DNA from: Eledone cirrhosa
Lineage: Eukaryota
Length of the DNA stretch: 64,000 nt
Direction: 5' to 3'
Assembly: GCA_964016885.1 (NCBI GenBank)
Contig: OZ024743.1
Coordinates: 267,468,001 to 267,532,000 of the forward strand
Both the position numbers and the translations under genes were made by a program. Shown here piece after piece: positions 4,698 to 44,033 of this stretch (the first letter of the stretch is position 1; the number at the start of each line of letters is the position of its first letter). The notes under the pieces are model-generated. The model did no database searches, was not told where the DNA came from, and saw nothing but the letters and a program-made list of their open reading frames with translations.

Positions 4698-4699
4698 TA

Positions 4700-6532
4700 T
4701 TACCTCAATGGCCAAGAAAACCCACACAGATAGATGGAACGGGTGGACCAGAGCCATACGGACACCCGAAAACCACGATGAACTGAAGAAAATGATTGCA
4801 CATGCGGTAGAGGCCAGCATAAAACTAACCCTTAAGGAACATATCTTCAAATTTAATGGAAAAACATATGCCCAAGAGGAAGGAGCAGCAATTGGTGTTA
4901 GCATTGCAGGCGACATAGCTAACTTATTCATGGTATGGTGGGACAGTAGACTTAAACTTAAACTTAAAGAACAATTAGAAGACCCCTTAACCCTGATAAT
5001 GTACTCCCGCTACGTTGACAATATAAACATCGTAGTTAAGACACCCCCACTAGGGAACAGTCAGGAACTAGAGAAAAACACAATGGAAAGCAACCAGCAA
5101 ATAGCTAACTCCATCGACGAGAGTATTAGAGTTACTATAGACTACCCAAGTAAACACTCAACCATCGATTACCTGTACTAGACACAGAGCTCTGGTTAGA
5201 TAGCATTAATAACAAAAAACATTCCTCCATTCCCATTATGCCAAACCCATGACTTCTAAACATCTGATCCACCGAAACTCAGCTGTTTCGGACCATACCA
5301 AAAGCAACATACTGATTGCGGATTTGGTACGGGTGATGAGAAACGTGTCCCGCATGTGCAACCCCGAAGAACTAGAGAGACACATACAACACTTCATCCA
5401 CCGTATGCAGTTCTCTAGTTACAATCAGAGAGATAGAATCAGAGTGTATACAGGAGCCAGAACCAAATGGGAAAAAATGGTAAATAATGACACAAATGGG
5501 ACCTGCCCTTTGATTAGGAGCAACTTTTGGAATAGAATAGAAAGAACTAGTAATAAGGCTAATAGAATAAACTCATGGTATGATAGCAATAAATACCAGA
5601 GTGTAATGTTCGTCGATACAACACCTAGAGGTGAATTAGCTTACAAATTTAGAAGGGCCCTAGATAAACATAAACTCAATATTAATATAGTAGAAAGACC
5701 AGGTACCTCCGTAAAAAACACTTATTAGCAAGACATACCCTTTCCAAAGACCCCCCTGTATAGATAAGAAATGTATAACCTGTAAAATAAGCCCCCATAT
5801 TAACTGTAAAACTAGAAATGTAGTGTATAGCATAAGATGTACTGAAGGACAATGTAGAGACAAAAATATAGTGTACATAGGTGAGACAGCTCGTAGTATA
5901 GGAGAACAGTTAAATGAAGACTGGCGAGAACTTCAAGATAAAAAAGAATCATCAATAGTCCAGCAACATGCTAAAATAGAACATAAGGGCAAATTAGAGA
6001 ACATAGAAATAAAAATAGAATCTACACACTGAAAAGACGCAATGTTTAGACAAATCACAAAGGCAATAAACATAAATGCACTCCAACCAAAATTACATAG
6101 AAAACATGAATGGAATAGCAACATCACAACTTACATTTAAGGTCAAAATGAAAACACATACACTCATAGAACAAACAACCAACCAGTAACATGTAAATAA
6201 ACAAATAAATAAACAAATATAAACACACACAGACACCCGGATGTGGTGCATGCGCAGACTGAGCACACAACACACACACATAAACAAAATGGCGTAGGAC
6301 AGAACAAAGGAGAGGCACAAAAAAACAAAGAAAAGAATCCCCAGTCACTGAAGAGGTCACAGAATGTGTGACGAAAGAACTTTGACAATATATAAACAAC
6401 TATCTGGTTGTGGAACCAACCAACCAACCAGAAATTTATATATTCCTAAATTTATAAATTTATTATGATAAATTGAAGTGAAAGCACCTGGTGCGTGTGT
6501 TTCTTATTGGCAACATGACCCTCCCAAAGTAT

Positions 6533-6540
<8 letters not shown>
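4700..6540 (+). mobile_element. 5'-truncated Penelope-like element, copy 2 (RT + GIY-YIG, frameshifted)
   Basis: ORFs 4708-5181 (GAAIG...YSRYVDNI RT motifs), 5249-5728 and 5823-6032 (VYIGETARS). pLTR ends in (TA)n. Confidence 0.92.
6343..6386 (+). ncRNA. pLTR minimal hammerhead
   Basis: GTCA-CTGAAGA-gGTCACA...TGTGAC-GAAA-GAACTT-TGAC. Confidence 0.65.
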
Positions 6541-6601
<61 letters not shown>

Positions 6602-6610
6602 TATATATAT

Positions 6611-6720
6611 ATTTCGTTTCTGAATTTGTTTAGCAAGATTCCTTATCTGAAAACGTGTGTTGAAACTGATATTGTTATTCTTTGGGAGGGTCATGTTGGC
6701 AATAAGAAACACACGCAACA
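6611..6720 (-). repeat. Inverted pLTR terminal fragment of the same PLE family
   Basis: Nearly identical to 3112-3222. Its right part is the reverse complement of 6488-6540. Confidence 0.8.
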
Positions 6721-7283
6721 GTTATATATATACACACCCTACAACTTCAGGAGGAAATGCCAGCTGTTCCTCATGGAGCTGTACTACGTCATAAGAAAAC
6801 CCCACGAGCTCATAAACAGCTGAGCGGCATCAGTCATAAATTGTACACTCCGAGTGCAGGCGTTGTATTTTGCCTGGGAAGCGACCGCGACATGAAAACT
6901 ATGAACTGGGTCCCCCTGCCCTAGCCATAACACCCCGGTGGGCAGGCGGTATAAACAAACATATGTGAACCAAATGTACATCGCAGACCAGGCGCGAACA
7001 AGCATTAGTGAAGCAACTACCACTATATAATAAATGTACATCTCAGACCCGACTTGAACTGGCACTAGTGAAACAACGCCCATAATATAAAAATACAAAA
7101 CACCATCTTATGAACAGGTATAAAAAACAGATGGGACTAGATTGTTTGAACACCGACCAGAGTTACTCCCCCTGCTCTGCGATAATAACAACACATGCAC
7201 GGAGGATAAGAATGAACTATGATGTTAATTTAACCGTGAAAACCCTCCTTAGTCGAGTATTGATCATTTTTTTTGTTTTCCAT

Positions 7284-7322
7284 GCCCATGATATTCCCAT
7301 TCCGGGCGAAACGTACGTAGGC
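7284..7322 (+). ncRNA. Degenerate hammerhead motif
   Basis: GCC-(CATGATA, mutated core)-tCCC attcc GGGc-GAAA-CGTACG-TA-GGC. Confidence 0.4.
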
Positions 7323-7423
7323 GAAATTGTTATATAAACAAGTTCTAACGGCTTTAAACTCCTTGTATTTATTTCTCTTATATATATACATATATATATA
7401 GATACATACATACAGGAAGGTAT

Positions 7424-7466
7424 ACGTTGCTGACGATAGCTAATAAGCTTGAAACTAGTACAGCGT
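7424..7466 (+). ncRNA. Minimal hammerhead (family A fragment fused to PLE copy 3)
   Basis: ACGTTG-CTGACGA-TAGCT AATA AGCTT-GAAA-CTAG-TA-CAGCGT. Confidence 0.8.
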
Positions 7467-8324
7467 TCCTTTGTCAGTGTTGAAAAAATTGCAATACTGA
7501 TTGCGGATTTGGTACGGGTGATGAGAAATGTGTCCCGCATGTGCAACCCCGAAGAACTAGAGAGACACATACAACACTTCATCCACCGTATGCAGTTCTC
7601 TGGCTACAATCAGAGAGATAGAATCAGAGTGTATAAAGGAGCCAGAACCAAATGGGAAAAAATGGTAAATAATGACATAAATGGGACCTGCCCCTTGTAT
7701 AGGAGCAAATTTTGGAATAGAATAGAAAGAACTAAGAACAAGGCCAATAGAATAAACTCATGGTATGATAGCAATAAATACCAGAGTGTTATGTTCATCA
7801 ATACAACCCCTAGAGGCGAACTAGCCTACAAATTTAGAAGGGCCCTAAAGAAACATAATCTCAATATTAAGATAGTAGAAAGACCTGGTACCTCCGTAAA
7901 AACACTTATTAGCAAGACATACCCGTTCCAAAGACCCTCATGTATAGATAAGAAATGTATAACCTGTAAAATAAGCCCCCATATTAACTGTAAAACTAGA
8001 AATGTAGTATATAGCATAAGATGTACTGAAGGACAATGTAGAAACAAAAATATAGTGTACATAGGTGAGACAGCTCGTAGTATAGGGGAACGAATAAATG
8101 AACACTGGCGAGACCTCCAAGATAATAAAGAATCATCTGTGCTCTACCAACATGCTAAGATAGAACACAGGGGTAAATTAGAGAGCATAGAAATAAAAAT
8201 AGAATCCACACACAAGAAAGACGCAATGTTTAGGCAAATTACAGAGGCAGTAAGCATAAAAGAATTAAAACCAAAATTAAATAGAAAATATGAGTGGAAC
8301 AGCAACATCACAACTTACAATTAA
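7449..8324 (+). CDS. PLE RT thumb/GIY-YIG endonuclease C-terminal fragment (first ~15 codons derive from the fused family A sequence)
   Basis: 291-aa ORF with VVY...YIGET...R...EH...E...LN GIY-YIG signature. Confidence 0.8.
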   Translation: MKLVQRSFVSVEKIAILIADLVRVMRNVSRMCNPEELERHIQHFIHRMQFSGYNQRDRIRVYKGARTKWEKMVNNDINGTCPLYRSKFWNRIERTKNKANRINSWYDSNKYQSVMFINTTPRGELAYKFRRALKKHNLNIKIVERPGTSVKTLISKTYPFQRPSCIDKKCITCKISPHINCKTRNVVYSIRCTEGQCRNKNIVYIGETARSIGERINEHWRDLQDNKESSVLYQHAKIEHRGKLESIEIKIESTHKKDAMFRQITEAVSIKELKPKLNRKYEWNSNITTYN

Positions 8325-8756
8325 GGACAAAATGAAAACACACACAAGACAAAATGAAAACACACACACACATAGAACAAACAACCAACCAACAATAAAT
8401 AAATAAATAAACAAACAAATAGAAAAATATAAATAGAAAAATAGAAAAATGAACACAAACACACACAGACACCCGGATGTGGCGCATGCGCAAACTGAGC
8501 ACGCAACCCACACACAAACAAAATGGCGTAGGATAGAAGAAAGGAAAGGCACAGAAACGAAGAAAGAAATCCCCAGTCACTGAAGAGGTCACAGAGTGTG
8601 TGACGAAAGAACTATGACTATATATATATAAACAACTATCTGGTTGTGGAACCAACCAACCAACCAACCAGAAATGTATAAATATATAATAAATTAAATT
8701 GAAGTGAACAACTGGTGCGTGTGTTTCTTATTGGCAACATGACCCTCCCAAAGTAT

Positions 8757-8762
<6 letters not shown>
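7490..8762 (+). mobile_element. 5'-truncated Penelope-like element, copy 3
   Basis: Open C-terminal ORF, Cys-rich linker (CIDKKCITC...CKT), GIY-YIG (VVYSIRC...YIGETAR), pLTR with HHR, ends in (TA)n. Confidence 0.93.
8575..8619 (+). ncRNA. pLTR minimal hammerhead
   Basis: AGTCA-CTGAAGA-gGTCACA...TGTGAC-GAAA-GAAC-TA-TGACT, CUA triplet. Confidence 0.7.
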
Positions 8763-11508: not shown

Positions 11509-14440
11509 TTAGTATCTATCCAGCTGCAATTTGAATGATTCCACACTGCATCCTGATAGATTTTTGACACCTACCGGAATGGAGTTGAATAGTTGTGCCC
11601 CTCGAACCAACAGAGTTGACTCTCGCAGGGTTTTCGCTGCCTGGCCAGCCCTTTTGTTGATTGATGGTAGCTGGCAGCGTCTTCCGTGGCGCAGTGAGTG
11701 GTAGGTTTGATACCAAAGTTTGGCACCTTTTGCTCTATCATTTTCCAAATGTATATAATTCGGTATCGCTCAAATCTTCTTTCTATTGAGTACATCTTCA
11801 AGGTGTTGAGTCTTTGCCAATAGTCCAGGTCCCTCGTTTCTGAGAAGTATGAGGTAACATTTCTTTGGAGCGATTCCATCTTAGATAGTTGGCCCTTTGT
11901 TGTTGGTGACCACAACTGAGAACAGTAGTCAATCCTCGGAAGTACCATACTGTTCCAGAGGGTTTTCATTATTGAGGTATCTCTTGATTTGAAGGTGCGC
12001 AAGATCCACCCGCTGTACTTTCTTGCAGTAAGACAGACTGAGTCAAGGTGTTCTCTGAATTTTAGGCTGGTTCCCATGTGGATGCCTAAATCTTTCACAC
12101 ACTGTTTTTCCATTATTTGTTGTCCTGATGGGTTTCTGTAGTTTGTTGTATTTTTCAGATCTTGATCTATTCCGTAGCGAATTAGTTCAAACTTCTTATC
12201 ATTGAACAATATGTTGTTTGTTTCCTGCCATTTGTATATGGTGGTTAGGTCCTTTTGTAAGGCCTCTGTATCCACCTCGTCTTTGATTTGTCTCATGACC
12301 CTGGTGTCATCAGCAAAGTATGAGACGTTGCTGGTTGTATCTTCATCTATGTCAGAGATGAGGATGAGAAACAGGATCGGGCCGAGTACTGTACCCTGAG
12401 GAACACTGGTGGTCACAGGTGATGGTGCTGAATGGGTTCCATTCACAGTGACTGTTTGAGTTCTATTTGTAAGGAACTCATGTATTGATGTACCAACTTT
12501 TCCTCCTACTCCTAGCTTTCGAAGTTTGTGTCCCAGGATGCCATGATCTACCTTGTCAAATGCCTTGGCAAAGTCGAGGTAAATAACATCTGTGTTGTAT
12601 CCATTCTCTTTCTAGGATTTGGTCATGGTGTGCCAGTAGTTGGGAAAGACATGATCTACCTAATCTGAATCCATGCTGATTGCAATTCAGATTGTTGGAT
12701 TCCAGGAACTCAACCAGTTTTCCACGAACTATTCTTTCGAAGACCTTGATAATGTGTGATGTCAGTGAGATTGATCGGTAGTTCTTTGGTTTTGATTTGC
12801 TGTCCCCTTTATGTATTAGATTTATGTGTGCTTCTTTATATGTATTTGGTATTTTGCCATTCTCCATAGATTCCTTCCATATCATGTAAAGGGGTTTCAA
12901 CAATTGTACCTTGCAGTTTTTAAGTATCATGGCATTGAAACCATCAGGCCCCGCAGCCGAGTGCATGGAGAGCTTGTCTATGGCTCTTACTATGTCTTCT
13001 GGGTTGAAATCAATGTCGGATAGGGTAGGTTTTGTATGGTCGATATCCTTGAAGAATTCTCCTGGATCTTCATGGTTTTAGATGGCTCACTGAAGACACC
13101 TTCATACTGTTGACCCAACATTTCTGCCATTTCAATAGGGTTATTCACTACATCCCCATTTTGTCCCTGGAGAGGTCCTATTGTTGACGTGGTATTCGAG
13201 TATTTCTTTGCAAAACTGTAGAAACATTTTGGATTTTTCTTGATGTTTTCTATGGCTCTCTTTTCTGCATTGTTACGTTCTTCATCATAGTGTTGCTTTA
13301 GATTGTCTTCTAATCTGTATATTTGATCAAGGACTTTCTGTAGTTCATTTTTTTTTCATGTCAGCTTAGATGTTTTGTTTCTTAGTCTTGACCTTTTGCG
13401 CATCTGGATCTTTCGCTCCCGTGGTACAGGTTTTTTTGTGGATTTGGTTTTCTTAAGAGGAATATTTTTTGCATATATTTCTTCGACTTGTTTAAGAATT
13501 TCTTGTGTTTATCTGGCCCAGTAAGGTAGAGATCCCAGTCAAAGATTTGTAACTGGTTGTTAATAGTTTCCCAATTTGCCTGGTGATAATCATACCTGCA
13601 TAGCTTTGGCATGTCCTTTTGTTTAAGAGTTGTGGCATTGGGCCCATTACCAATGTGTAAATGCATTTCAATAATATTGTGGTCTGAAAGGATTGTTGGG
13701 GTTGAGTGAAGGTCAAATAGCGTGTCCTCGTTGTTGGTGAAAACCAAGTCGATCGTATTATTATTTCTAGTTGCTTCTGTCATCATTTGTTTGAGGTATA
13801 ATTTCTCTGTGACTTCCAACAGTTTGGCTGCCTGTATTTGTTCGAGGTTGACTTTACCTTTCATCCTTACGGGGTCGATAAAATAAAGTACCAGTAATGC
13901 ACTGGATAATTGCTGGCCTTGTGCCTAAAGTAGAAACATGTATTTGTTCAGCTTTTGTCCCCAGTTTTAGTATGTGTCCATGTGGCCAGATGATGTTAGG
14001 GAAGTTGAAGTCACCAAGGAGGATAATGTCTGGCATTGGACTCGCCATGTTTCCCAGAATTTGTTGGAGCTTTGTCAGTGGCTCAGTGAAGGATAATGTT
14101 GGGCTTTTTGGCGGTCTGTACATTATTGTTACAACTGTATTAAGTTGGATGATTTTTATGCACAACAGGTTGCAGTAGGCATTTGATTCATTGACAAGTT
14201 CTATGCATGCATAGGTATCATGGATATACACGATAACGCCCCTATGGGATCTGCCTTGTCTATCACATCTGAAGATGTTGAATCCATTGATTGAGATTTC
14301 GCTGTTGCGGATGTTTTCGTTGAGATGACTTTCAGTAATTCCAATTATTTTGGAGTTGTTTTCTATTGCTAATTCTTCCAAGAAAGGGACTTTACACTGT
14401 TTTATTTTCGGATAAAGACCCTGGATATTTGCTGTTATTA
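11509..14440 (-). pseudogene. LINE ORF2 (APE-RT), frameshifted and SINE-interrupted
   Basis: Fragments 13854-14381, 13382-13843, 12556-12966, 11571-12446 and 11509-11748. Confidence 0.88.
13844..13938 (+). mobile_element. 5'-truncated MetaSINE-like SINE inserted in LINE ORF2
   Basis: Core CCTTTCATCCTTACGGGGTCGATAAAATAAAGTACCAG. 11-bp TSD TGTATTTGTTC at 13833-13843 and 13939-13949. Confidence 0.88.
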
Positions 14441-14455
14441 TGCTTTTTGTACCGG

Positions 14456-15235
14456 TTACATCTGCCCTATTGTTGGCAAGACTGTTGTAGTTGCTGGGAC
14501 TGTGCTGACTGGATATTCGGTCTGCTGGGCTGTCTGTATTTGTTGTATGTGCCCTGTAAGTCCAGGTGTCAGCCTTTGTATCAATGTTGCCAGGTTTTGC
14601 TGAGTCATCTGTATGGAGTACAGCTGTTGTTGTAGTTGGTAGATTATGCCTAAAAAACTGCTTTCATTCATTACTGTATGGAATTTCTGCGAGTTTGGGT
14701 TTGTTACAGCTGATGTGTGCAATTGAATAGCATGATTTTCTTTCACTGTTGAACCATGTCTTGGTTTCTGCATTTTTGGGAAGTGGTTTTCATACCCTGC
14801 TGAGTTTGGTCCTGGTGGTATGGGTTCAGTAGTTTTTATGCGAATTGTACCCTTCCGGTGCATAAATTTGCAATTCTCGTCAAAACATTCTTTTTTTCTC
14901 AGCGAATTGCGGCACATCTTTGGGTGAAGGAGTTCACATTCTCGGCCATTTTGGCATCCTTTTTTTCGATCAGTACCGAAGTTGATATATGGTTTGCATG
15001 GTTTGGGGTGACTGTACGTGCACCCTTTACCTGAAAGACCATGTTTGCACTTGTTGCTCCTGTAATGGATACATACTGGCCTTTCTTCATTTGAGCGTTT
15101 GCTCTGAATTTGTTTCTTTTCGTGGGAAGTTTGGTCTTTTTCAATGATGATGACGATAATGACGACGATGATGGTGATGGCAGTGGGTCTATTAGTTCTT
15201 TTAGCTGCTGATGTGAATGTTGTAGTTGTATCCAC
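14456..15235 (-). CDS. LINE ORF1 with three CCCH-type zinc fingers
   Basis: CIHYRSNKCKHG..GCTYSH; CKPY..GCQNGRECELLH; CRNS...CFDENCKFMH. Confidence 0.75.
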   Translation of the reverse strand: MDTTTTFTSAAKRTNRPTAITIIVVIIVIIIEKDQTSHEKKQIQSKRSNEERPVCIHYRSNKCKHGLSGKGCTYSHPKPCKPYINFGTDRKKGCQNGRECELLHPKMCRNSLRKKECFDENCKFMHRKGTIRIKTTEPIPPGPNSAGYENHFPKMQKPRHGSTVKENHAIQLHTSAVTNPNSQKFHTVMNESSFLGIIYQLQQQLYSIQMTQQNLATLIQRLTPGLTGHIQQIQTAQQTEYPVSTVPATTTVLPTIGQM

Positions 15236-16911
15236 TTCAATATATTACCAGTTGCGATATTTAAAGACGATATTTAAAGATGTTTTTTTGTTACTGTTGC
15301 CGTTGTTGTGAACTACTTATTGTTTTTCAGTGTCTTCGATTCGTTGTTGATCACTTAACCAAGTTGTTTGTGCAACAAAATATATTTGATAATAACATTA
15401 AATGGGCTGTAGTGAGTAAACAAATTTCGGGCTAGTTTATCCACGTGGTTACAGGTTTCTCACAGTGAGATACGAAGCAGAGTTATTAAAGAGATGGCCA
15501 ACTCTTTTAGCAATGAAATTGAAGTTTGAGGCATGTATGTTATCGGTTTGAAAGAGAATGAACCATGAGTTAATGAAAATATCCACTTCAATATACGACC
15601 AGTTGCGATATTTAAAGATATGTTTTTTGTTGTTGTTTTTTTGTTACTGTTGTTGTGAACTACTTATTGTTTTTCAGTGTCTTCGATTCGTTGTTGATCA
15701 CGTGTCTACATATTTTCGAATAATTTAGCGGTAACTTTGGATTGAGGCATTTTAATCAGGTGCTTTGACATAGCTATCATATTTTATCAATGCAAGGTGA
15801 TCTAATAGCAATCGATAAAAAAAATCCGCAGTCTATCTATTAGACGTCGTCATAAACTTGACAGCTATGATCAAAATGACCGACGGCTGGGGACAGAAAT
15901 CAGTAAAATAATATCTGCACCAAGTTACCTAAATCTTTTAAAACTCAATTAACTTAATTTACAACTTGTAATCAATTGATGTCAGTGACCAAATATATGC
16001 GTATCGCATACGAATCAGACTCACACACAGAGACATACAGACGAACAGAGACAGACAACAGACAGACACAGACACATACACACATACACGCACACACACA
16101 CACACACACACACGCACCCCGCCCCACACACACACAAACAAAGACACACACACATTGAGCTCAACTAAAATATTCATAGCCAAATACTCTTCTTATAAAG
16201 GGCATAAACGTCATATTTGGACATAAAATGACGAAATCGTGGCCTTGACTGAAATCAACAACATCATTGCCCACTGAATGATGCGTGACTATATATAAAC
16301 CTTTCCCTAGCTGTAATCTCTTATTGGGTCAAGTGATCTCAAACACGAAACCGCAGTCCATATATTTTGGCGGGCGTAAGCCTCAAATAATTGCCAGTAC
16401 GTTCCCAGATAATATGAGTTGGGAGGGTGAAAGAGTGTCTGACGGTCTCACGTTAAATAGTTGATAGTCGACTCCTTTTCGAAGGATGTGAGCAAGAAGG
16501 GATGCCAAATGACTGGGGAATTGATGTGCCAGGATTTGCGTAATGATTAATAAAGAGGCTGTGCTTCAGAGAAGGTGTTTAATGGCTGTCTATTACGTTT
16601 TCGATGTTGGAAATGTTGGTAGTAGAACGAGGAATGACAGGGTCATTGAGATTGCCTTTTCTGGGAATGGAGAGGACAGAGCGTACCTTGTTTTCCAAGA
16701 TTAAGATATACCATCTCAGGAACGGGAAATTGAAAGAGGAAATTTAAAGATTTGAAGAGTATAAGGGCATAGCATGGAATATATATTTTGAAGGTGTTAG
16801 AAGGGATATTATCAGCAGCAGAGGTAATTTTGTGTCGACACAATCGACGATAATTCCCCACATGTGGTGTATCCACTGGTATACCCGTTAATCTAAGAGC
16901 CCGATACTAAT

Positions 16912-24143: not shown

Positions 24144-24256
24144 GGATATGTGTTCCTTCACGCACAAGGCACTAAGGTACGCATGTATTGTCCAACCAAA
24201 TGCCAGTGTGGTTCAATGGTAGGTTAATAAATTAACGAGCCAGAACAAATATAAAG

Positions 24257-24749
24257 AAGGTTTAGCAAATAATGAAAAAGTTTCAAAATAAATTTTAAAA
24301 AATTGACTTTACCTACTATAGTTACCTTTACCGATCGGTTTCGAATCCTAAAATAAACGGAGACCATATGGCCTTCGTTGCAAAGAAAGATTCTCGTCAG
24401 AAGGTTCTTTTCATTCGAAGAATATACAATTCCTGAATTTAAATTACGAACTAGCGCTATCAAAACTGTTCCTGGGATGAGAGTGGATGATGTAGAAACA
24501 GGTTTATCAAGGTCCGAAGTAAAGATAGAGGCAGAAGGAGGTAGGTAAAACCAGCCGCAGCTATCACTAGCAGCAGTCGGAGCGACCAAATTTGTTCTCA
24601 ACTTCTGACGAGAATCTTTCTTTGCAACGAAGGCCGTATGGTCTCCGTTTATTTTTGGGATTCGAAACCGATCGGTAAAGGTAACTATAGTAGGTAAAGT
24701 CAATTTTTTAAAATTTATTTTGAAACTTTTTCATTATTTGCTAAACCTT
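24257..24749. mobile_element. Family E: non-coding element with ~147-bp inverted arms, each containing a hammerhead
   Basis: HHR 24324-24405(-): ACCTT-CTGACGA-GAATC...GATTC-GAAA-CCGATCGG-TA-AAGGT. Second copy at 24600-24682(+). Confidence 0.87.
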
Positions 24750-24793
<44 letters not shown>

Positions 24794-24828
24794 ATATATA
24801 TATATATATACATATACATACATATTCA

Positions 24829-24860
<32 letters not shown>

Positions 24861-24883
24861 CATATATATATATATATGTATGA

Positions 24884-24946
<63 letters not shown>

Positions 24947-24991
24947 TATGTATATATATATGTATGAATATATATATATATATGTATATAT

Positions 24992-25947
24992 ATAGCGATA
25001 TATATGTGAAGAAAAACATAGAATATTCGAAAATATTCTGTATGTTTATAATAAACATTTTGAAGAGCCGGCTACCGCTCTTTCAAACCAGTTCCTGTAC
25101 ACAGCTAAGTATTCTATAAGTCTCTAGCTGTGTCGTTCTCGATAAAAGCATTGGATATGTAATCCTGATGATTTCTAATAAGAATGAAACGCGTAGATTA
25201 CTTCCCTTGCTTTTATCGAGAATCTCAAATTGTAATACGTGACGTATTCTATTCTATAGCGATTGGCTCTTCAAAATGTTTATTATAAACATACAGAATA
25301 TTTTCGAATATTCTATGTTTGTCTTCACATATATATCGCTATTTCAGAGCATTAAATCCAAATTCTAATTTCTGCCGGACCGGCTACCGCTCTTTCAAAC
25401 CAGTTCCTGTACACAGCTAAGTATTCTATAAGTCTCTAGCTGTGTCGTTCTCGATAAAAGCATTGGATATGTAATCCTGATGATTTCTAATAAGAATGAA
25501 ACGCGTAGATTACTTCCCTTGCTTTTATCGAGAATCTCAAATTGTAATACGTGACGTATTCTATTCTATAGCGATTGGCTCTTCAAAATGTTTATTATAA
25601 ACATACAGAATATTTTCGAATATTCTATGTTTGTCTTCACATATATATCGCTATTTCAGAGCATTAAATCCAAATTCTAATTTCTGCCGGACCGGCTACC
25701 GCTCTTTCAAACCAGTTCCTGTACACAGCTAAGTATTCTATAAGTCTCTAGCTGTGTCGTTCTCGATAAAAGCATTGGATATGTAATCCTGATGATTTCT
25801 AATAAGAATGAAACGCGTAGATTACTTCCCTTGCTTTTATCGAGAATCTCAAATTGTAATACGTGACGTATTCTATTCTATAGCGATTGGCTCTTCAAAA
25901 TGTTTATTATAAACATACAGAATATTTTCGAATATTCTATGTTTGTC

Positions 25948-25951
<4 letters not shown>
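24992..25951 (+). mobile_element. Family F retrozyme: ~2.8 near-identical 312-nt tandem monomers with three hammerheads, plus inverted 5' piece
   Basis: CTGATGA at 25165, 25477 and 25789: GTAATC-CTGATGA-TTTCT AATA AGAAT-GAAA-CGCG-TA-GATTAC. 24992-25069 is inverted. (TA)n on both sides. Confidence 0.92.
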
Positions 25952-26044
<93 letters not shown>

Positions 26045-26046
26045 GT

Positions 26047-26120
<74 letters not shown>

Positions 26121-26717: not shown

Positions 26718-26908
26718 AACGAAGGAAATGTGGTAAGGAACCAGGTGGACCATAACGCACCAAAGTACTCAATACTTAGGGTAGTAGAGTGGGTAATAGG
26801 AACGAGTAGGACCCCGACGGCTGAGCTCAAGCCGTTTTCTTTTTTTTTTTTTACTCCAGAATTAGCCGTCGAAACGGCTTGAGCTCAGCCGTCGGGGTCC
26901 TACTCATT

Positions 26909-26912
<4 letters not shown>
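26718..26912. repeat. Hairpin element family H
   Basis: Terminal fold-back GGACCCCGACGGCTGAGCTCAAGCCGTTT / AAACGGCTTGAGCTCAGCCGTCGGGGTCC, in (TA)n. Confidence 0.8.
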
Positions 26913-30899: not shown

Positions 30900-32900
30900 G
30901 TATGAATCTAGCCGTTATGAGTGTTACTGTGGCAGAAGATCCTGGATGTGAAATGCCGTGTAAAACAAGAAACACAGTTCGACGATCGTTCAACGGAACA
31001 AAAGGGCGTGGCGCATCCAAAGAGACATCGCAGAGGATCCGTCCGTCTGCGGTCGATAATGGTAGCTATTTCATCCTGCAATTCACACATTCAGACGATG
31101 TAACATCCAACGATTCGAGGGTAGGCTGATCGGCTGCCAAGCGATTCAAATCTATGTCATCGGACGCCGAGATCGAAGCAATCGGCAAACGAGACAGGGC
31201 GTCGGCCGCTGTATTCATAGAACCCGGAATATGTTGAATATCATTAGTAAATTTAGAGATGAGGTCGAGATCTCTAGTTTCTCTGGGCGAGTATTTGTCG
31301 GCCTTTGCTTGCAAGGCGAATATCAACGGCTTGTGGTCCGTGTAGATGGTGGACGTTCTTCCTTCAAGCATGTGCGAAAAATGCTTCACCGATAAGTATA
31401 TAGCTAACAACTCCCGTCCAAAGGTGCTGTAGCGGGTTTCGGCAGGTTTCAGCTTCCTGGAGAAAAATTCCAACGGTTGCTGTTGATCATTAGCTGCTTT
31501 GTTGCAAAACTGCGCCCACGGCAGTATCCGACGCATCAACACAAAGCGAAAGCTTAGCATTGGACACTGGGTGAGCCAGCAAAGATGCATTGGCTAGAGC
31601 AATTTTCGCATTCTCAAAATCCTCGAGCTGAGTTTCATTCAAAAAATGTCTTTATTTTTCTTTCGGCAATTTTTCAAAATGTCCGTCAAAGAGAAGAGTA
31701 GCTTATCACAATTAGGCACAAACCGCCTATAAAAGTTAATCAGCCCCAAGAATTGGCGCAACTGACGGAGTGAGTTCGGTGGAGGCAAATCCTCTATAGC
31801 TTTAACTCTCTTAGGATAGGTCGAATCCCGTCAGAGTCAAAGACATGACCTAAAGAATTCAGTGATTCCGCACCGAAAACACATTTTGTGGGATTTATTT
31901 GAATACTGTAATCCTTCAGTCGACAAAACAAAAGATTCAAATGACGTATGTGTTCTTCTCTGGAGGAACTAGCAATAAGCAGATCATCAATATAAGTGTA
32001 GACGAAGTCGAAACCACGAGTGATCTCATCCATGAACCGTTGAAAGGTTCTAGCAGCATTCCTAAGTCCGAAAGGCATGGGAAGAAATTCGAATAATCCA
32101 AATGGAGTCGTAATGGCCGTTTTCGGAATATCTTCTTTCCTGACAGGAATCTGATGATAGGCTCGCACCAAATCGAGCTTCGAGAAAATTTTACATCCCT
32201 GCAACGACGATGCAAAATCATGCAGGTGTGGAATAGGGTATCTATCCGGGAGAGTTATAGCATTTAACTTCCTATAATCGCCAGTGGGTCTCCAGTCGCC
32301 AGAAGTTTTGGGTACCATGTGTAACGGAGAAGCCCAAGGGCTCGTAGAAGGGCGAACTATGCCAAGATGCAGCATGGGGTCGAACTCGGACCGTGCTGCC
32401 TTCAATTTGTCCGCAGGCAAGCGACGAGGATCGTGAGAACACTGGGGCGCCAGTTGTAGCGATAAAATGCTCCGTTGTGTGAGTCGGTTCGACAACTCGA
32501 AAATTTTCCTGAGTAAGCTGTGGGAAAGAATTCAACAATGCATGATAGGGATTCCCAGCATTAGCGATGAAAAAGGTCGGGCTAACCGCTGGAAAATTAG
32601 CTTTCTGGCCACAAAGAAAAAAAAACAGTAATGTCGTCTACTAGGCGTCGGCCACGGACGTCCACGGACGTCCACCGTCGGCCACGGACGTCCACCAGAG
32701 GAAGCGAGATTTGTCCAAAGGTCCGTATCGGCGAATGATTGACAGCTTGTTGTAGATTCATTGATGACTGAGGAGGCGTTACTGTCATACAATTGACAGG
32801 CCAAATACTGCACGAAGCTCCTGTGTCTACGAGGAAGGCTCTTCCAGACAGGAGGTACTCTATGAAGAAATGGCGGTTCTGTTGTGTCTGGCAGAATTCA
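30900..32900 (-). pseudogene. pol: Gypsy pol (PR-RT-RH, frameshifted; integrase deleted)
   Basis: [55 protein letters not shown]. Confidence 0.9.
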
Positions 32901-32910
32901 CTTGCCGCCT

Positions 32911-33705
32911 TTAGTGACTCTGATCTACATTTCCCGAAGCTGAATATTTACATGGAGGCCGGCAATGTTTTGCCTTCTCCGCGAAGGTGGCATGATACCA
33001 GCAAAATAATGGATTGCTGGCGGGCGAAGTGGTATGCCGACGTGGAGTCGCGAAAGAACGCGAAATACTCCTAGGCCGCCGGGAATACGGCCTATTCTCC
33101 CTGCATAACCGAGCGACTTGCTGCGTCAAAGCGTCAATAGCTTTTAACATGGCATCCTCGCGTGTCGAGACGGGCTGGTTCGAATGTGAAGAAGAAGCAA
33201 CACACGAGTCCGGGTCGGTAGTCTTTCTAGAAAATTCCACGATTCGATCAGCGGAGGCAGCAATCTGCTCCAAAGAACTGGTATCCACAATGTTTGCCAA
33301 GATAATTTGGACCTTGTTTGGCAGGCGAGAGAAAAATAGTTTCTTTATGAATGGGCTATCTTTGTCTGTCGAGTCGCTGAGGTCCCTGATGTGTAGCAAA
33401 AATTCAGACGCTGTTCTGTCACATAAACACACGTCATCCAACAATGAACGAAATCTGCTTTCAGCAGAACGACTGTTTCTTCTTAATATTTCTTCCCGTA
33501 ACGAATCATACGAAATACCGGCCGATGGGTTCGTTATCAAATCCTTCACCGTTGTAGCGAGTGAAGAAGGAATGCCGCTTATCAAAACGTTGAGCTTCTG
33601 CTCTGTTTTCCCTCCGTTCGCAGCGAAATATGCGTCGAGTTGTGCAAACCAGAGTTTGAGTTCACCTGAGAACGCAGGTAAACTAGGACTACTCATCATT
33701 AGCAT
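32911..33705 (-). CDS. gag: Gypsy gag
   Basis: LPAF...LWFAQL N-terminus and CWYHATFAEKAKHCRPPC C-terminal motif. Confidence 0.88.
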   Translation of the reverse strand: MLMMSSPSLPAFSGELKLWFAQLDAYFAANGGKTEQKLNVLISGIPSSLATTVKDLITNPSAGISYDSLREEILRRNSRSAESRFRSLLDDVCLCDRTASEFLLHIRDLSDSTDKDSPFIKKLFFSRLPNKVQIILANIVDTSSLEQIAASADRIVEFSRKTTDPDSCVASSSHSNQPVSTREDAMLKAIDALTQQVARLCRENRPYSRRPRSISRSFATPRRHTTSPASNPLFCWYHATFAEKAKHCRPPCKYSASGNVDQSH

Positions 33706-36700
33706 GTATCAGTTCTACATAAAAAATACTAAATGATATCCAAGTAAAGAAATGCAACGCGTGTTAGATGTTTGGAACAATGGGAAAACTACACAAATTT
33801 CCCTCAACATCCATGAAGAAAGAAGAAATGCAAAATCCGGAATCGACAAGTCACAATTATTCAAGGCAGAAAAATTAAATGTTTATTATTTTTTTTTAAT
33901 TGGAGAAGGAGATGGCATCACATGATGCGTCTCAGCCAATCATACGGCCGCATTTCGGAGAAGAAAGACAATTGGCAGGAAAATTGGTGGACCAGTCAGC
34001 CATTGTCAATTTTTTTTTTTTTTGTGTTAAACGAACAATTTTCAATTTCTTTATTTTCGCATAGTTGCAAGAAATAAAATATTAGTTTCGTCAATTTTTT
34101 TTTTATGTTTCTCTAGACATTTTTAGAAGTATTTTTTAGAAGGCTCTGTATTGCATAATCGGGCGGGGTCAACCACTTTAGGAGAGATGGTCACCATTTT
34201 AGAAGGCTGCGTTGTTTTACGATTTAGAGAGGAGTTCGTTTCCCTAGCTTGGCTGGTAGAACATCTCTTCTATTTGTTGTTAGGTGTAGGTAAACAATTA
34301 AGCAAGAAGAACATACCTCGAGATTATATGTACATGAGCATTTTAATCAGAGCAATAAAGAAAACCGGTTATCATATCAGTTGCTCCTTGATTGGTAATT
34401 CGTAATTATCATTAAGTGGCGGTGTTCAATTATCCCGTGACCGCATGGTGTGATATCGCTATTTCGCCACCGTGAAATGCGTCTGCTCGCATCAACACAC
34501 AAAGTTGAAAAGTGTGTATTCAGCTACTGACGTCAGAACGTGACTTCAGAACTAAGGGCAGTTAATCGACACCCTCCAAAGTCAAAGCTAGGTGGCGTGA
34601 TCTTCTACATACTTATACATAATGGTTTCTGATTTAGGCACAAGGCCAGCAGATTTGGGGGTGCGGAAAATCGATTAGATTCGATTTATATAATAATAAA
34701 ACACATACACACGCACAATGAGAATTACACGAGTGATGGAATCTAGAAGGCGACAATACTGAGAATTATGTAGTGAAAAGTATATCATTGCTTCAGAATT
34801 CAAATCTTACCGAGGCCTGAGAACGGTCATGTGCAATGACTTTTTCTCTCAGCCTTAACATATGTATGCATATTATGTATATATACGTTCAGCTCGATAT
34901 TCATTAATAGATTATTTACCAACGTACCAAGACGAATGTGTGACTGTACTTGGATACTTGGATTTACGGAGAGAACGTAGCTCATATCATTAATTCATAA
35001 ACTACAAATATCCGCGATATCATGAAACTTGAAAATTCGCAAAATATTCTCTTGATTTAAAGGATGAAAACTTATACAAGATAAGGCGTCAGTTTTCTCT
35101 TTCTTTACAATTGTTCCGCTTGGAAAGTGTCCGGTCAAAAATAAGCTGAAAATTAAGTGAAAAAGATACCTACTTACACACACACATGATGATGGCTGCC
35201 CCCTCGTTATCGAGTGTGGCCATTGCACGATATAACATTATTAATAATATAATATTAAAAATTATTAATTAATGCTATCGTGCAATGCTTGTGCGTGAAG
35301 GTTTTTTTTAAAGTGAGTAAAGACTGTGCACTGAGCCAATCCCACTCCCTGAGCGAGAGTAGCTATAACCCGAAAAGAAAAAAAGATCAACATCATCGGT
35401 ATCTACTGAACCGCAGGTTTTATGTCGGAGTTATCACAGTTTTCTGAGTTGCCTTCTCCTTGAAGAATGCCATGACAAGTGCTAGGGTTCTTCACTCCCA
35501 GTGGTTTAACTACAAGATCTATTTCCCCTCGCATATACATACACATGCATACATGTGTATACATATTTAAACATTTTTGGATGGCCGTTGACTCTTATGA
35601 GTACTTCCGCCCTTTGTCAGGTTTTGTTTTTTGTCCTGCAGGGTGTCTAAAACCACCCTTCTCACCAAGTAAACTTGGTGGGGTTACCGCTTTAGTCGCC
35701 GACGACCCGACCATGCGACAGGTTGTACTGTGTTACATGTTACCAGTAGCACTCGAGAACGACCTGACATACATACATACAAACACACAAACACACATAC
35801 ATACATAGATACACACACACACACACATACATACATACATACATACATATCTTACAAGGATATTTTTCATGTGTTTCTCTTTTAGATTATTTTTCCTTAT
35901 TTGTCGCTAATAATTAATTAATGGCTCGTTTGGTTCCTTGTTTTCGAATCTACCCGACCTCTAATATGTATATATCTTTTCCACATTTATGTTCCTTCCT
36001 AACAAATATAATATATTAAAAACATGCAAAAGAAATTGAAAAAATAAATGTTTGAATGGCAAAACGATTACTCAGAAACACGGTTAGTCTTATTAGCACA
36101 CATAATTATACATATAAACTTTATTAGTGATTCAAACAGACAAACTCTCGTATACATAGGCACCCAAGATCACACATATATACATGCACTTATAACAACA
36201 CATGCGTATTACTTCCTTATTTGTGTACTAAATATTCAGCACTCATTGACGTTCAACTAGTTTGGTCTGGTCTGGTCTGGTCTGGTTGTTTTAATATCCT
36301 AGCAGCAATGTCAGCATTAGGAAAGAGAAAGATGCTGTGTTTATAAAAGAACATTATTTCCGCTTCCGGTTCACTGGTATCTTGCATGACTGTGAAACAT
36401 AAGTATAAAGGGTGGTCTATGCAAAAAATTAAAACAGAAAGAATAATATATAACCAAAAACATGTTAATAGATTTAACATAGCATAGATGTGACTAATTA
36501 TCTATTTATCTATACTATATAATAATTTCTAAGCAGTGCCACATAGCTAAGACATTTGAGGAAGATGTGTAGACAAATTGATCCATCAAAGGAACATAGA
36601 GGCATTATTATATTATATACGTACATGGTTGTGTAGTTAAGGAGATCGCATTGCAAATACGGGGTTTCCAGATTACTCCCACAGGCTGTCAAATTGAACA

Positions 36701-39817: not shown

Positions 39818-42135
39818 CTAGGGAGAAGTGTTTAGACGGGGTCCGTATTTGTTAATGAAGTAAGATTCCTTGCTGATGCGCTGGGTGTGGGTGGCATTAT
39901 CTTTACATTTGTAGATGGGAAAGATTCTGAAGTTGGTATGATTTTGGGCGGCACAGGTATCAATGTGTTCACTCAGTGGTATTTTCCTGTATTCCCGTAT
40001 TTTAATTTGGGATCTATGGACAGTCATGCGTTGGCGGAGGCTGTTTTTGGTCTGGCCTATGTATTGTTCTCGACAACCTGAACAAGTTAATACATATATT
40101 AGATTTTCCGATGCACATGTGAAATTGTGTTTTACTATAAAACGTTGTCCATCTTTGAAATAGAATTCCGAACCCTCTATTAGGTTGATGCAAATGCCAC
40201 AGTTGGGTCTATCGCATTTTTTTACTGTGGGTTTCGTTGTTGTGGTTGGCAGTACTTTGGCATGTGTTAAGATGTTTTTCATTGACTTGGATTGTCTTTT
40301 GCTCTTTATGATATCGTGTGTTCGTAGAATTTGGTTCATTCTATGGTCCTTTTTCAATACAGGGATGTTCTGGAGGATGGTGTCAAAGGCCTCATTGTTG
40401 AGGGGGTTGTGTGTGGAGATGTATGGAAGAGCTTTTAGTTTTGGTTGATTTACTTTAGGGTGTCTAAGGTCCTGGGTACTGAGTTTTAGGGCACGTTGGA
40501 TTCCATTGTCAATTAGTGATGCAGGGTAGTCCCTGCCTATGAGTGTGTCCTTTAGTTCTTGTAGCCGTAAGTAGCAGATGTTTTTATTGGAGACTATAGT
40601 ACAGATTCTCTTGGCTAAGTTGTAGGGAATATTAATTTTAACGTGTCTAGGGTGGCAAGAGTTGAACGGGAGGTATTGCTTGGAGTCTGTGGGCTTGTTG
40701 TCTGTTTCTATTTTTTTGTTATGGATCTTAATGAGGATGTCGAGGAAGGGGAGTTGTTGATGGCTGTATTCCATCGTGAAGTTAATATTTGTGTTGAGCC
40801 CATTTATAAGGGTGTGAAATTCTTTAAGTTTTTCGATGTATTCGTGCCAAAGGATGAAGCAGTCATCTAGATATCGCTTCCAGTTCCTCTCAATGTGTAA
40901 GTGGAGGGTGTTTCCAAATTTGTTTAGGACTTTAGTGTAGAGGGTGATTTCCAGGTATCCCATGACTAGGTTGGCATAAGTAGGGGCTGTTTTCGTTCCC
41001 ATAGCGGTCCCAGATTTCTGCCTGTAGGGTTTGTTATTGAAAACGAAGTAATTGTTCTCCCAGATAAATTTGAGTCCCTCTATCACGAATTCTTTTTGAT
41101 GCGTTGTGGGAGTTCATTGTGGAAATTATCCAGCCAGAATTGGATAGCTTCTATTCCTAGGTTGTGGGGGATGTTGGAGTATAGGTTGACTACATCGAAC
41201 GTCACTAGTAGGGTTTGTTCAGAAAGTGGCATATTAGGGAGGTGATTGAGCATATCTAGGTCGTCCCTTATATAGCTTTTGATGTGCTTGAGGAAGGGTT
41301 TGAGAAGGGTATCAATGAAGTTGCTAAGACGGTGCGTTTCGCAAGCGGGGCCTGCTATTATAGGTCTTAATTTGAGATCATTGGGTGAGGGGACATTGAT
41401 GACTATGTCTGTGGCTTCCTTGCATGCCTTACTGATTGATTCGCTTTTATGTACTTTAGGGATACCATAGAAAAGGCTGGATTTACTTGTCAAGTCAGTG
41501 ATGAAGCTGAATTCCTTGTTAGTGAGTCCTTCTTTGTATTGGTTGATTAGAGTTTTTAGGTTTCTCATAATTTTCTGTTGATTGTAGTGTTCAGCCTTTT
41601 CGTAGTATGTTTCGTTTTCCAAAGTGGAGAGCGCTAAGTTGATATAGAATTCTGTCTCCATTAGGACTACTGTACTCCCTTTATCAGCCTCTTTAATTGT
41701 AATGGTTCTGTCGGTTTTTAATCTATTTAATTCTTCCCATTCTTTCTTGTTGAGGTTTGGCTTGTGTTTTTGTCTGTGCAAGTGTTGGTAAGGGAAGTTT
41801 GTGATGTGTTCACAGAATTCGTCCAGGATTTTATTTCTACCTTTTGAAGGGGTGTAATTGCTTCTATTTCTGGCTAATGATTCATCCTCATTGTACTGGT
41901 CGAATAGTTGTTCACTAAGTCGTAACTTTCTACAGAAGTCTGTGATGTCTTCCTTCATTTCATAGTAGTTAGAACGTAGTGGGGTCGGTGTGAATTTAAG
42001 ACCTTTGGAGAGTAAGTTGAAAAGGTTGGGTGTTGGTTCTGCACTAGTAAGATTGATAATTTTTATTACTATCGGTTTCTCCTCCCTGTCTTGTGTTATT
42101 TTGTTTGCCTGTATCTGTGTGCTGTGTCTAAAAAA
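39818..42135 (-). CDS. PLE RT + GIY-YIG endonuclease (one frameshift at ~41085)
   Basis: LLSKGLKF, EADKG, FYGIPKVHK, LRPII, FDVVNLY, GTAMGT, WKRYLDD, LPFLD, KCDRPNCGIC linker, LIYVLTC..C..QYIGQT. Confidence 0.9.
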
Positions 42136-42301
42136 TGGTTGGGGTAGAGGGGTTGTCTGCTGATGTTAAGTGGTCTCCTGTGTTTGTTATATTCCTTGTT
42201 GTTGTAAAATGTGGTTCGGGTTGGTGGTTGTAGATTGAATGGGGTGTTCCTGTACTGCGAGTATGGGTGTGTGTTTCTATGTGCCATGTTGTATTGTGGT
42301 G

Positions 42302-43405
42302 TTATAAGTGGCCTACGTTGTTGGTTGTATCGTGTGGTGTGGGTTTGTGTGTATTGTGGAAGTGAGAGTTGAGAAAATGGTAATTACCTTGCTGTCCCCT
42401 TGAAGCGGGGAAGTTGTTGCATCTATCATGGCGGTGGTATCTTTTCCCTATGTTTGACGATGAGGAATCCGCGTAGTAGTTGAGTGATTTGGTATGGTGT
42501 CTCCTTGAAGGGGGAAAGTTGTAAATGTCATTCTGGGGGAGATGATTTCTTGGGTTTTTGTTCCTTCTTATGGTAGCGAGGTTGGGAAGTTCATCTTCGG
42601 TGTGGTGCTTCCTTCTTCGTTTGTTTGAGGCTTGGGGGTTTGAGAAGTTGTTGTGCGGTTCAGTTATGAGTTTTCCTATTTTTATGAACGGGTTATTGAA
42701 GGTGTAATCCGTTTGAAAAGTCGATTCATAGTGTAGGAACCAAGCGGCACTTTTTTCCCAGCGTTGAAGGGATTTCAGTTCTTCTCTGTTGCAGTCCCCT
42801 TTCCATAATTTGGAGATCTTCTCTACCTTGGGGCCTTCAGTTTTGTTGTTGATTTCCAGGAGGATCTCTTCATCGATGGTTTTGATTTTTTCCTCATTTG
42901 TCTGGGCCCTCAGTTTAAGAAGTTCAATTTCTGTCTTCATTTTTTCCAATGCCATTCTTTCCCTAAGGTGTCTTTGAGGTTCGGGTTCATTTGGAATGGA
43001 CTTTATTTGTAGTTTACGGGGGAGAGTTAGAGGGGTTGAGTTAAGCCATTTTTCATATATCTCTGCTTTGTTGTGATTTTGTATCATCTTCCAGAATGAG
43101 AACTTTCTGTCTCTGAGGGATTTGTTCCATTTTGGAATTGTTCGAATTTTCATTTTGTGTGAATCAATCTCACATGGTTCTTCGTTGGTTTTTCCTGGGT
43201 TGGTAGTAGTGAACATAGTTTGGATAGTATCGCAAAGGTTTTGGAGTTTGTCGCCGATTTCGGAGGGATTGTATCCGGTGGCGGTTTCCTTATTTGTGGA
43301 GTCAAGTTTGTCGACCAGCAAAGATAGGTTGGTGTTGATTTTCTTGAGTTCCTGTAGGATCTCTTCATTTGAGTTGATGAGGGTTGTATCCGTTTTTGTT
43401 GGCAT
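42302..43405 (-). CDS. PLE upstream ORF (coiled-coil-like N-terminus, H/N/P-rich tail), function unknown
   Basis: 367-aa ORF starting just inside the 5' pLTR boundary. Confidence 0.7.
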   Translation of the reverse strand: MPTKTDTTLINSNEEILQELKKINTNLSLLVDKLDSTNKETATGYNPSEIGDKLQNLCDTIQTMFTTTNPGKTNEEPCEIDSHKMKIRTIPKWNKSLRDRKFSFWKMIQNHNKAEIYEKWLNSTPLTLPRKLQIKSIPNEPEPQRHLRERMALEKMKTEIELLKLRAQTNEEKIKTIDEEILLEINNKTEGPKVEKISKLWKGDCNREELKSLQRWEKSAAWFLHYESTFQTDYTFNNPFIKIGKLITEPHNNFSNPQASNKRRRKHHTEDELPNLATIRRNKNPRNHLPQNDIYNFPPSRRHHTKSLNYYADSSSSNIGKRYHRHDRCNNFPASRGQQGNYHFLNSHFHNTHKPTPHDTTNNVGHL

Positions 43406-44033
43406 TTTCTGTATCTAGTGTGAGGATATGATAGTTAAAAAAATAGAGGTGTAACACACAAGTTATTATATATTGGTAAACGGAATAGAAAATGCTGACA
43501 AATTGTTCACAGTTGAAAAATGGTTTAATTAGGAATAAAAGAGTATTAGTGATTGTATGGGTTAGTATTCAGTTGTGGTTTTAAGTTTTTAAGTTTTCAC
43601 CGGTTGCGCATTTCTAAATGCTTTTAAAAAATAATTTTGAGATAGAGTGTCCGTGCTGTTTGCTCTGATCTGATTAGTTTTGGGAATTCTACCTGTTTTT
43701 ATGTTAAAAAAGTGGCTCCAGCGTTATTTTAGTGTTGCAAAAATGCTTGTGGTCAAAACAATTTTGATTGGTCGGTAGAGGTCATGTGAATGTAAAAAGT
43801 TGATTTTGCGCCAAGACTGTTTTTATGTTACAATGTTAAAAAAGTGGCTCCAGCAAAAATTCTTGGTCAAAAAAATTATTTTAGAAAAGCATTTAGAAAT
43901 GCGCAACCGGTAAAAACTTAAAAACTTAAAACCACAACTGAATAATAACCCATACAATCACTAATACTCTTTTATTCCTAATTAAACCATTTTTCAACTG
44001 TGAACAATTTGTCAGCATTTTCTATTCCGTTTA

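What the first reader, a model, noticed from the sequence alone, without database searches (positions are those of the whole stretch)
24992..25951. Family F: recent rolling-circle-like insertion of a highly structured 312-nt retrozyme
Seen: ~2.8 monomers, identical as far as I can read. HHR stem I extends through an internal loop into a perfect 15-bp helix (TTCTCGATAAAAGCA/TGCTTTTATCGAGAA). Other hairpins are ACACAGCTA/TAGCTGTGT, ATAGCGAT/ATCGCTAT, AGAATATT-TTCG-AATATTCT and AATACGT/ACGTATT. Known: metazoan retrozymes are tandem HHR repeats of a few hundred nt that yield circular RNAs. Inference: RT went round a circle nearly three times, so the family is probably active.
Basis: partly seen in the sequence, partly recalled or inferred. 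Interest (0 to 1): 0.8.

Follow-up and report, generated by a model that had tools for sequence, protein, structure and literature searches.

The report
Young retrozyme copied from both ends
This is one copy of a young, protein-free 312-base jumping repeat that carries a hammerhead (self-cutting RNA) motif and sits in TA microsatellites as two back-to-back arms, a layout that likely records a Penelope-type retrotransposon enzyme copying one probably circular RNA from both ends of a DNA cut.

Summary
The array is real: 25068-25951 is 2.83 identical 312-nt units, each with a type I hammerhead motif. The element is a dispersed young family (587 exact ribozyme copies; 9,411 with a 310-nt subfamily). 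Most insertions are two head-to-head arms whose 3' ends face (TA)n, one stopping near unit position 132-141 and the other near 165-174 (43 mixed, 1 same-type, in loci not chosen by their ends). That is the Penelope 'tail' of two reverse-transcription start sites. Both arms share one haplotype (41 of 42; chance 14%). Locus-private variants fill all units, 732 cut-site junctions show no unit-private indel, and younger arrays are longer. This favours one template copied from both ends of a cut, probably a monomer circle, but an uncut multimer is not excluded, and unit number also changes after insertion. No RNA, cleavage or partner enzyme was shown. It is a new member of a known kind (non-LTR retrozyme, non-autonomous Penelope-like element). 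The scan noted the same two-arm anatomy in other genomes.

The parts
24753..24991 (.). (TA)n target tract, left flank
   Evidence: TRF; sequence
24992..25069 (-). Inverted arm, 78 nt, unit positions 70-147. Its outer end (147) is atypical: family long ends lie at 165-174, so it is likely trimmed or an odd start
25068..25069 (.). Junction of the two arms, 2-nt overlap
   Evidence: family-wide 58 of 99 junctions overlap by 1 nt or more
25068..25951 (+). Direct arm, 884 nt = 2.83 identical 312-nt units, from unit position 185 to the short end at 132 (match runs on to 141 in the TA tract)
25136..25222 (+). Extended stem I: 15-bp helix (25136-25150 with 25208-25222), internal loops and 6-bp stem I; repeats at +312 and +624
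25159..25201 (+). Type I hammerhead motif 1, predicted cut after 25195; palindromic 6-nt stem III, predicted to work as a dimer; U-U first pair in stem II
   Evidence: cofold; dimer rule from PMC4209133 passages
25471..25513 (+). Hammerhead motif 2, predicted cut after 25507
25783..25825 (+). Hammerhead motif 3, predicted cut after 25819
25196..25507 (+). Full monomer from cut to cut (312 nt, 34% GC, longest open frame 56 aa); the second is 25508-25819
25295..25369 (+). Conserved end module: 8-bp hairpin (25295-25314), short end site (25327-25336), conserved tail motif, long end site (25360-25369); inferred RT-recognition and start region
25267..25267 (+). Locus-private base (unit position 72) in all direct units and in the inverted arm; fixed in no other of 61 loci
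25952..26108 (.). (TA)n target tract, right flank

Best explanation
This is one insertion of a young non-coding tandem element with a type I hammerhead motif in every unit, laid down as two head-to-head arms in a (TA)n tract, likely by a Penelope-type RT/GIY-YIG enzyme that cut both strands and primed from both ends on one RNA that was probably a monomer circle. Shown: the units, the motif, the dispersed young family, the two-arm geometry, the two end sites about 36 nt apart used one per arm, and the shared haplotype of the arms. Inferred (about 0.9): mobilisation in trans by a Penelope-like element. Inferred (about 0.8): a staggered cut, each 3' end extended from one of two internal start sites on the same RNA, and the two cDNA ends joined through microhomology or short templated inserts. 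Inferred (about 0.65): array transcripts are cut by dimer hammerheads and ligated to circles, and strand-displacing RT laps the circle a random number of times. Later DNA events add or remove units.
For: Copy number: 587 exact 36-mers, 9,411 with the young subfamily, 1,232 short ends of that subfamily. Ends: of 62 loci of the 312 family, 43 have one short and one long end, 1 has two long, 0 two short; of 51 young loci 49 are mixed, and 17 of the 19 not chosen as end pairs. Ends are internal, not at the ribozyme cut, as in the two start sites 30-40 nt apart of the purified anole element, which cuts and extends both strands (PMC11167929). Arm haplotypes identical in 41 of 42 and 29 of 35 loci against 14% and 9% for cross-locus pairs. 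Locus-private variants fixed in all covering units in 8 of 51 and 9 of 61 loci. 0 unit-private indels at 732 cut-site junctions; 5' ends not piled at the cut (4 of 111, 0 of 100); arm lengths fit an exponential and are uncorrelated. The younger subfamily (0.00047 singletons/nt against 0.0025) has longer arms (4.7 against 2.0 units, p = 1e-6). Target duplications in 14 of 92 loci against 3.4% in cross-locus controls. The end module is conserved in sister families with different hammerheads and its hairpin covaries. A coding Penelope-like element in this genome (L218) has the same two-ended layout in (TA)n.
Against: No partner found: no RT or endonuclease frame is joined to any copy examined, and none of 50 GIY-YIG loci carries the module in its own end repeat. 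Variants shared by only some units occur in 5 of 51 young and 16 of 61 older loci, a few in both arms (L040, L150, L179), which a single monomer circle does not explain. L084/L085 show unit number changing after insertion or in assembly. The window's own left arm ends at 147, off both sites; 7 of 62 loci have such an odd end and 11 have one arm. Stem II opens with U-U, not the usual G-C (PMC4209133). In vitro the anole enzyme used unprocessed RNA and did not need the ribozyme, and 8 of 9 Xenopus retrozyme dimers did not cleave. 32 of the 49 young mixed loci were chosen as end pairs, so they do not test the rule.
Confidence: 0.7

Rival explanations
1. Same Penelope-type two-ended insertion, but the template is an uncut linear multimeric transcript of an existing array; the hammerhead is slow or idle and no circle is needed.
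For: Unprocessed RNA was the main substrate in vitro; most Xenopus dimers did not cleave; part-shared variants, some in both arms; clean junctions and no pile-up at the cut are expected here too.
Against: New variants become fixed in every unit of both arms in 17 of 112 loci, which needs a one-unit bottleneck. Arms of 8-10 identical units on both sides of very young insertions. Nested haplotypes each fixed across whole loci.
Confidence: 0.22
2. Short (1-2 unit) Penelope-type insertions that later grew into arrays by unequal exchange or slippage at the DNA level, as proposed by Li et al. 2026.
For: L084/L085 differ in unit number; periodic variants in the longest arms (L043, L148, L150); model.
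Against: Younger loci have longer arms, most unit variants are singletons (68 and 215), and arm lengths run smoothly from below one unit upward.
Confidence: 0.07
3. Ordinary satellite or assembly artefact.
For: Perfect identity of units; (TA)n flanks are hard to assemble.
Against: Hundreds of dispersed loci with distinct junctions; the tandem joint and the unit are in run contigs of this and another organism label.
Confidence: 0.01

Closest known systems
Metazoan non-LTR retrozymes (Cervera and de la Pena 2020, PMC7229834; Li, Clavereau and Pollet 2026, bioRxiv 10.64898/2026.07.22.740005)
   Same: 150-450-bp tandem units, type I hammerhead in each, low GC, no ORF, stable predicted fold, thousands of copies; Penelope-like elements proposed as the mobiliser; RT on a circle proposed to give tandem cDNA.
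   Different: In the parts read, neither paper describes insertion ends, inverted arms or start sites ('inverted' occurs 0 times in PMC7229834). Here expression, circles and cleavage are untested, and no parent pLTR was found.
Insertion units of EN+ Penelope-like elements (PMC3846280, PMC8557442, PMC11167929)
   Same: Head-to-head inverted arms, 30-40-nt tail at one end only, AT-rich or (TA)n targets, two internal RT start sites, target duplications of about 10 bp or more, microhomology junctions.
   Different: No ORF; each arm is a multimer of one small unit running through the ribozyme cut up to 10 or more times; the one-short-one-long rule and the shared haplotype of both arms are measured here.
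L1 twin priming (recalled, not read here)
   Same: Both target ends prime on one RNA and give an inversion.
   Different: Here both primers start at fixed sites 36 nt apart in unit phase and the arms cover overlapping sequence with independent lengths.

Membership tests
Metazoan non-LTR retrozyme | Tandem units of about 150-450 bp, GC under 50% | tested here: met
   312 nt, 34% GC
Metazoan non-LTR retrozyme | Type I hammerhead motif in at least two consecutive units | tested here: met
   Three cores with stems I-III; no Rfam gathering hit; stem II opens with U-U
Metazoan non-LTR retrozyme | No protein coding, no LTR layout | tested here: met
   Longest open frame 56 aa; arms end directly in (TA)n. 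PBS and PPT were not searched for separately.
Metazoan non-LTR retrozyme | Dispersed multi-copy family | tested here: met
Metazoan non-LTR retrozyme | Expressed as monomeric linear and circular RNA | not testable with these tools
   No RNA holder listed; one circular 342-nt contig in a run of unknown kind fits a circle or a tandem array
Metazoan non-LTR retrozyme | Self-cleavage | not testable with these tools
   Needs an in vitro assay
Penelope-like element insertion (non-autonomous) | Inverted 5'-truncated arm, head-to-head | tested here: met
   51 of 62 and 49 of 51 loci
Penelope-like element insertion (non-autonomous) | 30-40-nt tail at one end only | tested here: met
   43 mixed, 1 long-long, 0 short-short; the window's own left end is atypical
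Penelope-like element insertion (non-autonomous) | AT-rich target with duplication longer than 4 bp | tested here: met
   (TA)n flanks; 14 of 92 against 3.4% control, unreadable in pure TA
Penelope-like element insertion (non-autonomous) | End sequence shared with an autonomous RT/GIY-YIG partner | tested here: inconclusive
   None in 50 GIY-YIG loci out of 10,596 candidates
Autonomous Penelope-like element | RT and GIY-YIG ORF | tested here: not met
   No ORF in or joined to the copies
Plant LTR retrozyme | Type III hammerhead in two LTRs, 4-bp TSD | tested here: not met
   Type I motif in tandem units

The most novel reading that the evidence does not exclude
These insertions are a genomic record of two-ended rolling-circle reverse transcription: a dimeric Penelope-type enzyme sits on one 310/312-nt RNA circle, each subunit starts at its own fixed site from one end of a double-strand cut, and both lap the circle. 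Each insertion therefore passes through a single RNA molecule, and changes made on the RNA (A-to-G is enriched, possibly A-to-I editing) become fixed in the genome and found new sublineages. The conserved hairpin-plus-tail module would then be a portable signal that lets any small circle be written into (TA)n.
Probability: 0.3. Interest if true: 0.8.

Novelty: new member of a known kind. Interest (0 to 1): 0.5.

Why it matters
How animal retrozymes move, and why Penelope-like elements leave inverted arms and a tail, are both open in the papers read. This family gives about 1,300 near-identical recent insertions whose ends, haplotypes and lengths test those models directly. It points to one template, two fixed start sites used one per DNA end, and probably a circle. 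It also defines a short candidate recognition module for a reconstitution assay. The class of element itself is known, and the scan has noted the same layout in other genomes.

Tried and rejected
Rfam scan: no hit. Sequencing runs: no RNA holder listed, so nothing follows on expression; runs with small word shares were not used. Partner search led nowhere: open frames near arrays were unrelated neighbours; 30 tail-motif loci and 4 wider stretches were sister retrozymes; 50 GIY-YIG loci lacked the module in their end repeats (the output was cut, the seven longest-frame loci were reread); an older relative led to more non-coding families (outputs of 59 and 64 were partly cut). A suspected pile-up of 5' ends at the ribozyme cut did not hold (4 of 111, p = 0.24; 0 of 100). 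L1-type twin priming with abutting arms was rejected because 5' ends are uniform over the unit. Counting RT laps from unit number was rejected (L084/L085). Target duplications cannot be read in pure (TA)n. Empty-site polymorphism was not tested. No earlier notes exist for this genome. The organism was not identified.

Full report
Observation. The tandem array is 25068-25951, 884 nt or 2.83 units of 312 nt, with no mismatch at lag 312. Each unit has a type I hammerhead motif: 6-bp stem I, full core, 4-bp stem II that opens with U-U, and a 2-bp stem III with a palindromic 6-mer; H17 lies at 25195, 25507 and 25819. Two copies cofold through that palindrome, the dimer arrangement described for metazoan hammerheads (PMC4209133, passages). 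Rfam has no gathering-level hit. The first 78 nt of the finding, 24992-25069, are not part of the array: they are the reverse complement of unit positions 70-147 (numbered from the cut), with 1 mismatch, overlapping the direct arm by 2 nt. Both outer ends run into (TA)n.

Family. The monomer gave 242 matches in the 39 of 500 candidates scored. An exact 36-mer of the ribozyme occurs 587 times, and 9,411 times when a 310-nt subfamily is admitted. That subfamily has 1,232 short ends joined to TA and 687 long ends on the forward strand alone (the reverse count is inflated by repeated matches), so about 1,300 insertions. A related unit of about 309 nt is abundant in a run of another organism label, and a third label has a single 342-nt contig that closes on itself; its run kind is unknown, so it fits a circle or a tandem array. 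No RNA holder was listed.

Insertion anatomy. I held 66 stretches with the 312 family and dropped 4 (a duplicate, a continuation, a tandem duplicate, one with an N gap). Of the 62 left, 51 have two head-to-head arms with 3' ends outward: 43 have one short end (about 132, match running to 141 through a short TA tract in the unit) and one long end (about 165-174), 1 has two long ends, none two short, and 7, this window among them, have one odd end; 11 have one arm. These loci were chosen by unit match, not by ends. Of 52 young loci I dropped 1 (N gap); 49 of 51 are mixed, but 32 were chosen as end pairs, so the fair figure is 17 of 19, of which 8 were chosen for having a long end. Junctions overlap by 1 nt or more in 58 of 99 and have inserts in 28 of 99. 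Informative target duplications were seen in 14 of 92 loci against 3.4% in cross-locus pairs; L105, outside pure TA, is the clearest at about 12-15 bp. This is the layout known for endonuclease-bearing Penelope-like elements: inverted arm, 30-40-nt tail often at one end only, microsatellite targets (PMC3846280 and PMC8557442, passages). The purified anole enzyme cuts and extends both strands, is predicted to be a dimer, and starts at two internal sites that bound the tail (PMC11167929, parts 1-2 of 4). A coding element in this genome, L218, has inverted end repeats that stop at two sites about 65 nt apart in TA (read). A staggered cut with both 3' ends extended gives exactly the observed geometry; that step is inference.

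One template. Where both arms share 200 or more positions, their fixed haplotypes are identical in 41 of 42 young loci and 29 of 35 older loci, against 14% and 9% for arms from different loci (61 older loci there, one more dropped for an N gap). The window shows it too: a base at position 72 fixed in no other locus is in all three direct units and in the inverted arm.

Circle or multimer. For a circle: private variants fixed in all covering units in 8 of 51 and 9 of 61 loci; no unit-private indel at 732 cut-site junctions, which argues against repeated jumps on cut monomers; 5' ends uniform over the unit (p = 0.29, 0.28) and not piled at the cut (4 of 111, 0 of 100); arm lengths compatible with an exponential (p = 0.09, 0.12) and uncorrelated; and the younger subfamily has longer arms (4.7 against 2.0 units in 52 chromosome-1 arms, p = 1e-6), the opposite of slow growth. 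Against: variants in only some units in 5 of 51 and 16 of 61 loci, some in both arms; periodic patterns in the longest arms; and L084/L085, one duplicated locus with the same junction but 0.4+4.0 against 2.4+3.0 units. The anole enzyme did not need its ribozyme in vitro and 8 of 9 Xenopus dimers did not cleave. I put the circle at about 0.65.

Recognition module. A hairpin, the short TA tract and a conserved tail motif recur in sister families with other hammerheads (2,191 matches to a pattern that excludes this family) and those families end at the same two sites. In 10 family representatives the 8-bp hairpin is 93.8% paired with 4 pairs changed on both sides, above 500 of 500 shuffles for pairing and covariation score; the rows are related, so this is supportive only. 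No autonomous partner carrying the module was found among 50 GIY-YIG loci of 10,596 candidates or next to any copy.

A side lead. Template-level (locus-fixed) changes are rich in A-to-G on the ribozyme strand: 13 of 42 against 18 of 256 single-unit changes, or 12 of 41 after merging shared sites and re-polarising by hand (p = 1.4e-4; A-to-G against T-to-C alone 12:6, p = 0.09). A-to-I editing fixed by RT would explain it, but so would RT error bias or tolerance of G-U pairs, and the 5' neighbours do not clearly fit. It is a lead, not a finding.

Known and new. The element meets every sequence feature of metazoan non-LTR retrozymes (PMC7229834: abstract, passages, Results part 1 of 3, Discussion; its supplementary model figure was not seen). 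That paper proposed circles copied into tandem cDNA with Penelope-like elements as candidates, and Li et al. 2026 (parts 1-3 of 5; supplements closed) tied retrozymes to pLTRs by homology and favoured local amplification. Seven searches found no paper that reads retrozyme insertion ends or arm haplotypes; the library lacks most subscription papers. The scan's own notes report the same two-arm, two-site layout for retrozymes in other genomes; I reached my reading before seeing them and they are not independent support.

Verdict. A real, young, very abundant non-LTR retrozyme; new member of a known kind. Its value is the measured insertion record, which makes the Penelope partnership and the circle model testable. 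Interest 0.5.

Noticed in passing
window 24224-24750: Another hammerhead-bearing element with inverted arms between (TA)n tracts; core on the minus strand at 24400.
   Followed up: no
window 1881, 7430, 26471, 38357: Hammerhead motifs of other families; three share a palindromic stem III and belong to an abundant tandem family also seen in L038, L047, L050, L083.
   Followed up: partly
window 7400-8760: A hammerhead-family fragment runs directly into a Penelope-like coding fragment (7440-8324), possibly a template switch between a retrozyme and a coding RNA.
   Followed up: no
window 39818-43414 (-), 57628-59412 (-), 3272-8324 (+): Three kinds of Penelope-like coding remnants; GIY-YIG confirmed for 39818-41113 only.
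   Followed up: partly
window 11571-15244 (-) and 31066-33708 (-): Frames that look like a LINE and an LTR retrotransposon remnant, judged by eye (labels recalled, not tested).
   Followed up: no
window 26750-26910: Short palindromic element ending in (TA)n.
   Followed up: no
L109-L138, L233-L262: Older sister retrozyme families of about 320-330 nt keep the end module; many have a U3-A8 pair in place of C3-G8 in the ribozyme core and longer stem III.
   Followed up: partly
L057, L092, L093, L218, L224: A short palindromic family shares this family's core and stem II but not its end module; possibly the source of the ribozyme.
   Followed up: partly
L143, L147, L166, L171, L172, L175, L178, L180: A young sublineage has a change that turns the U-U first pair of stem II into A-U; three of these loci also gain a base beside the cut that pairs in stem I. 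Natural variants for a cleavage assay.
   Followed up: no
L059: Both arms end at the long site and the flanks are mirror images, the one exception to the short-long rule.
   Followed up: no
L046:3390-5700: The array follows directly on a different palindromic hammerhead element, with no inverted arm of its own.
   Followed up: partly
L084 and L085: Duplicated locus with the same arm junction but different unit numbers.
   Followed up: partly
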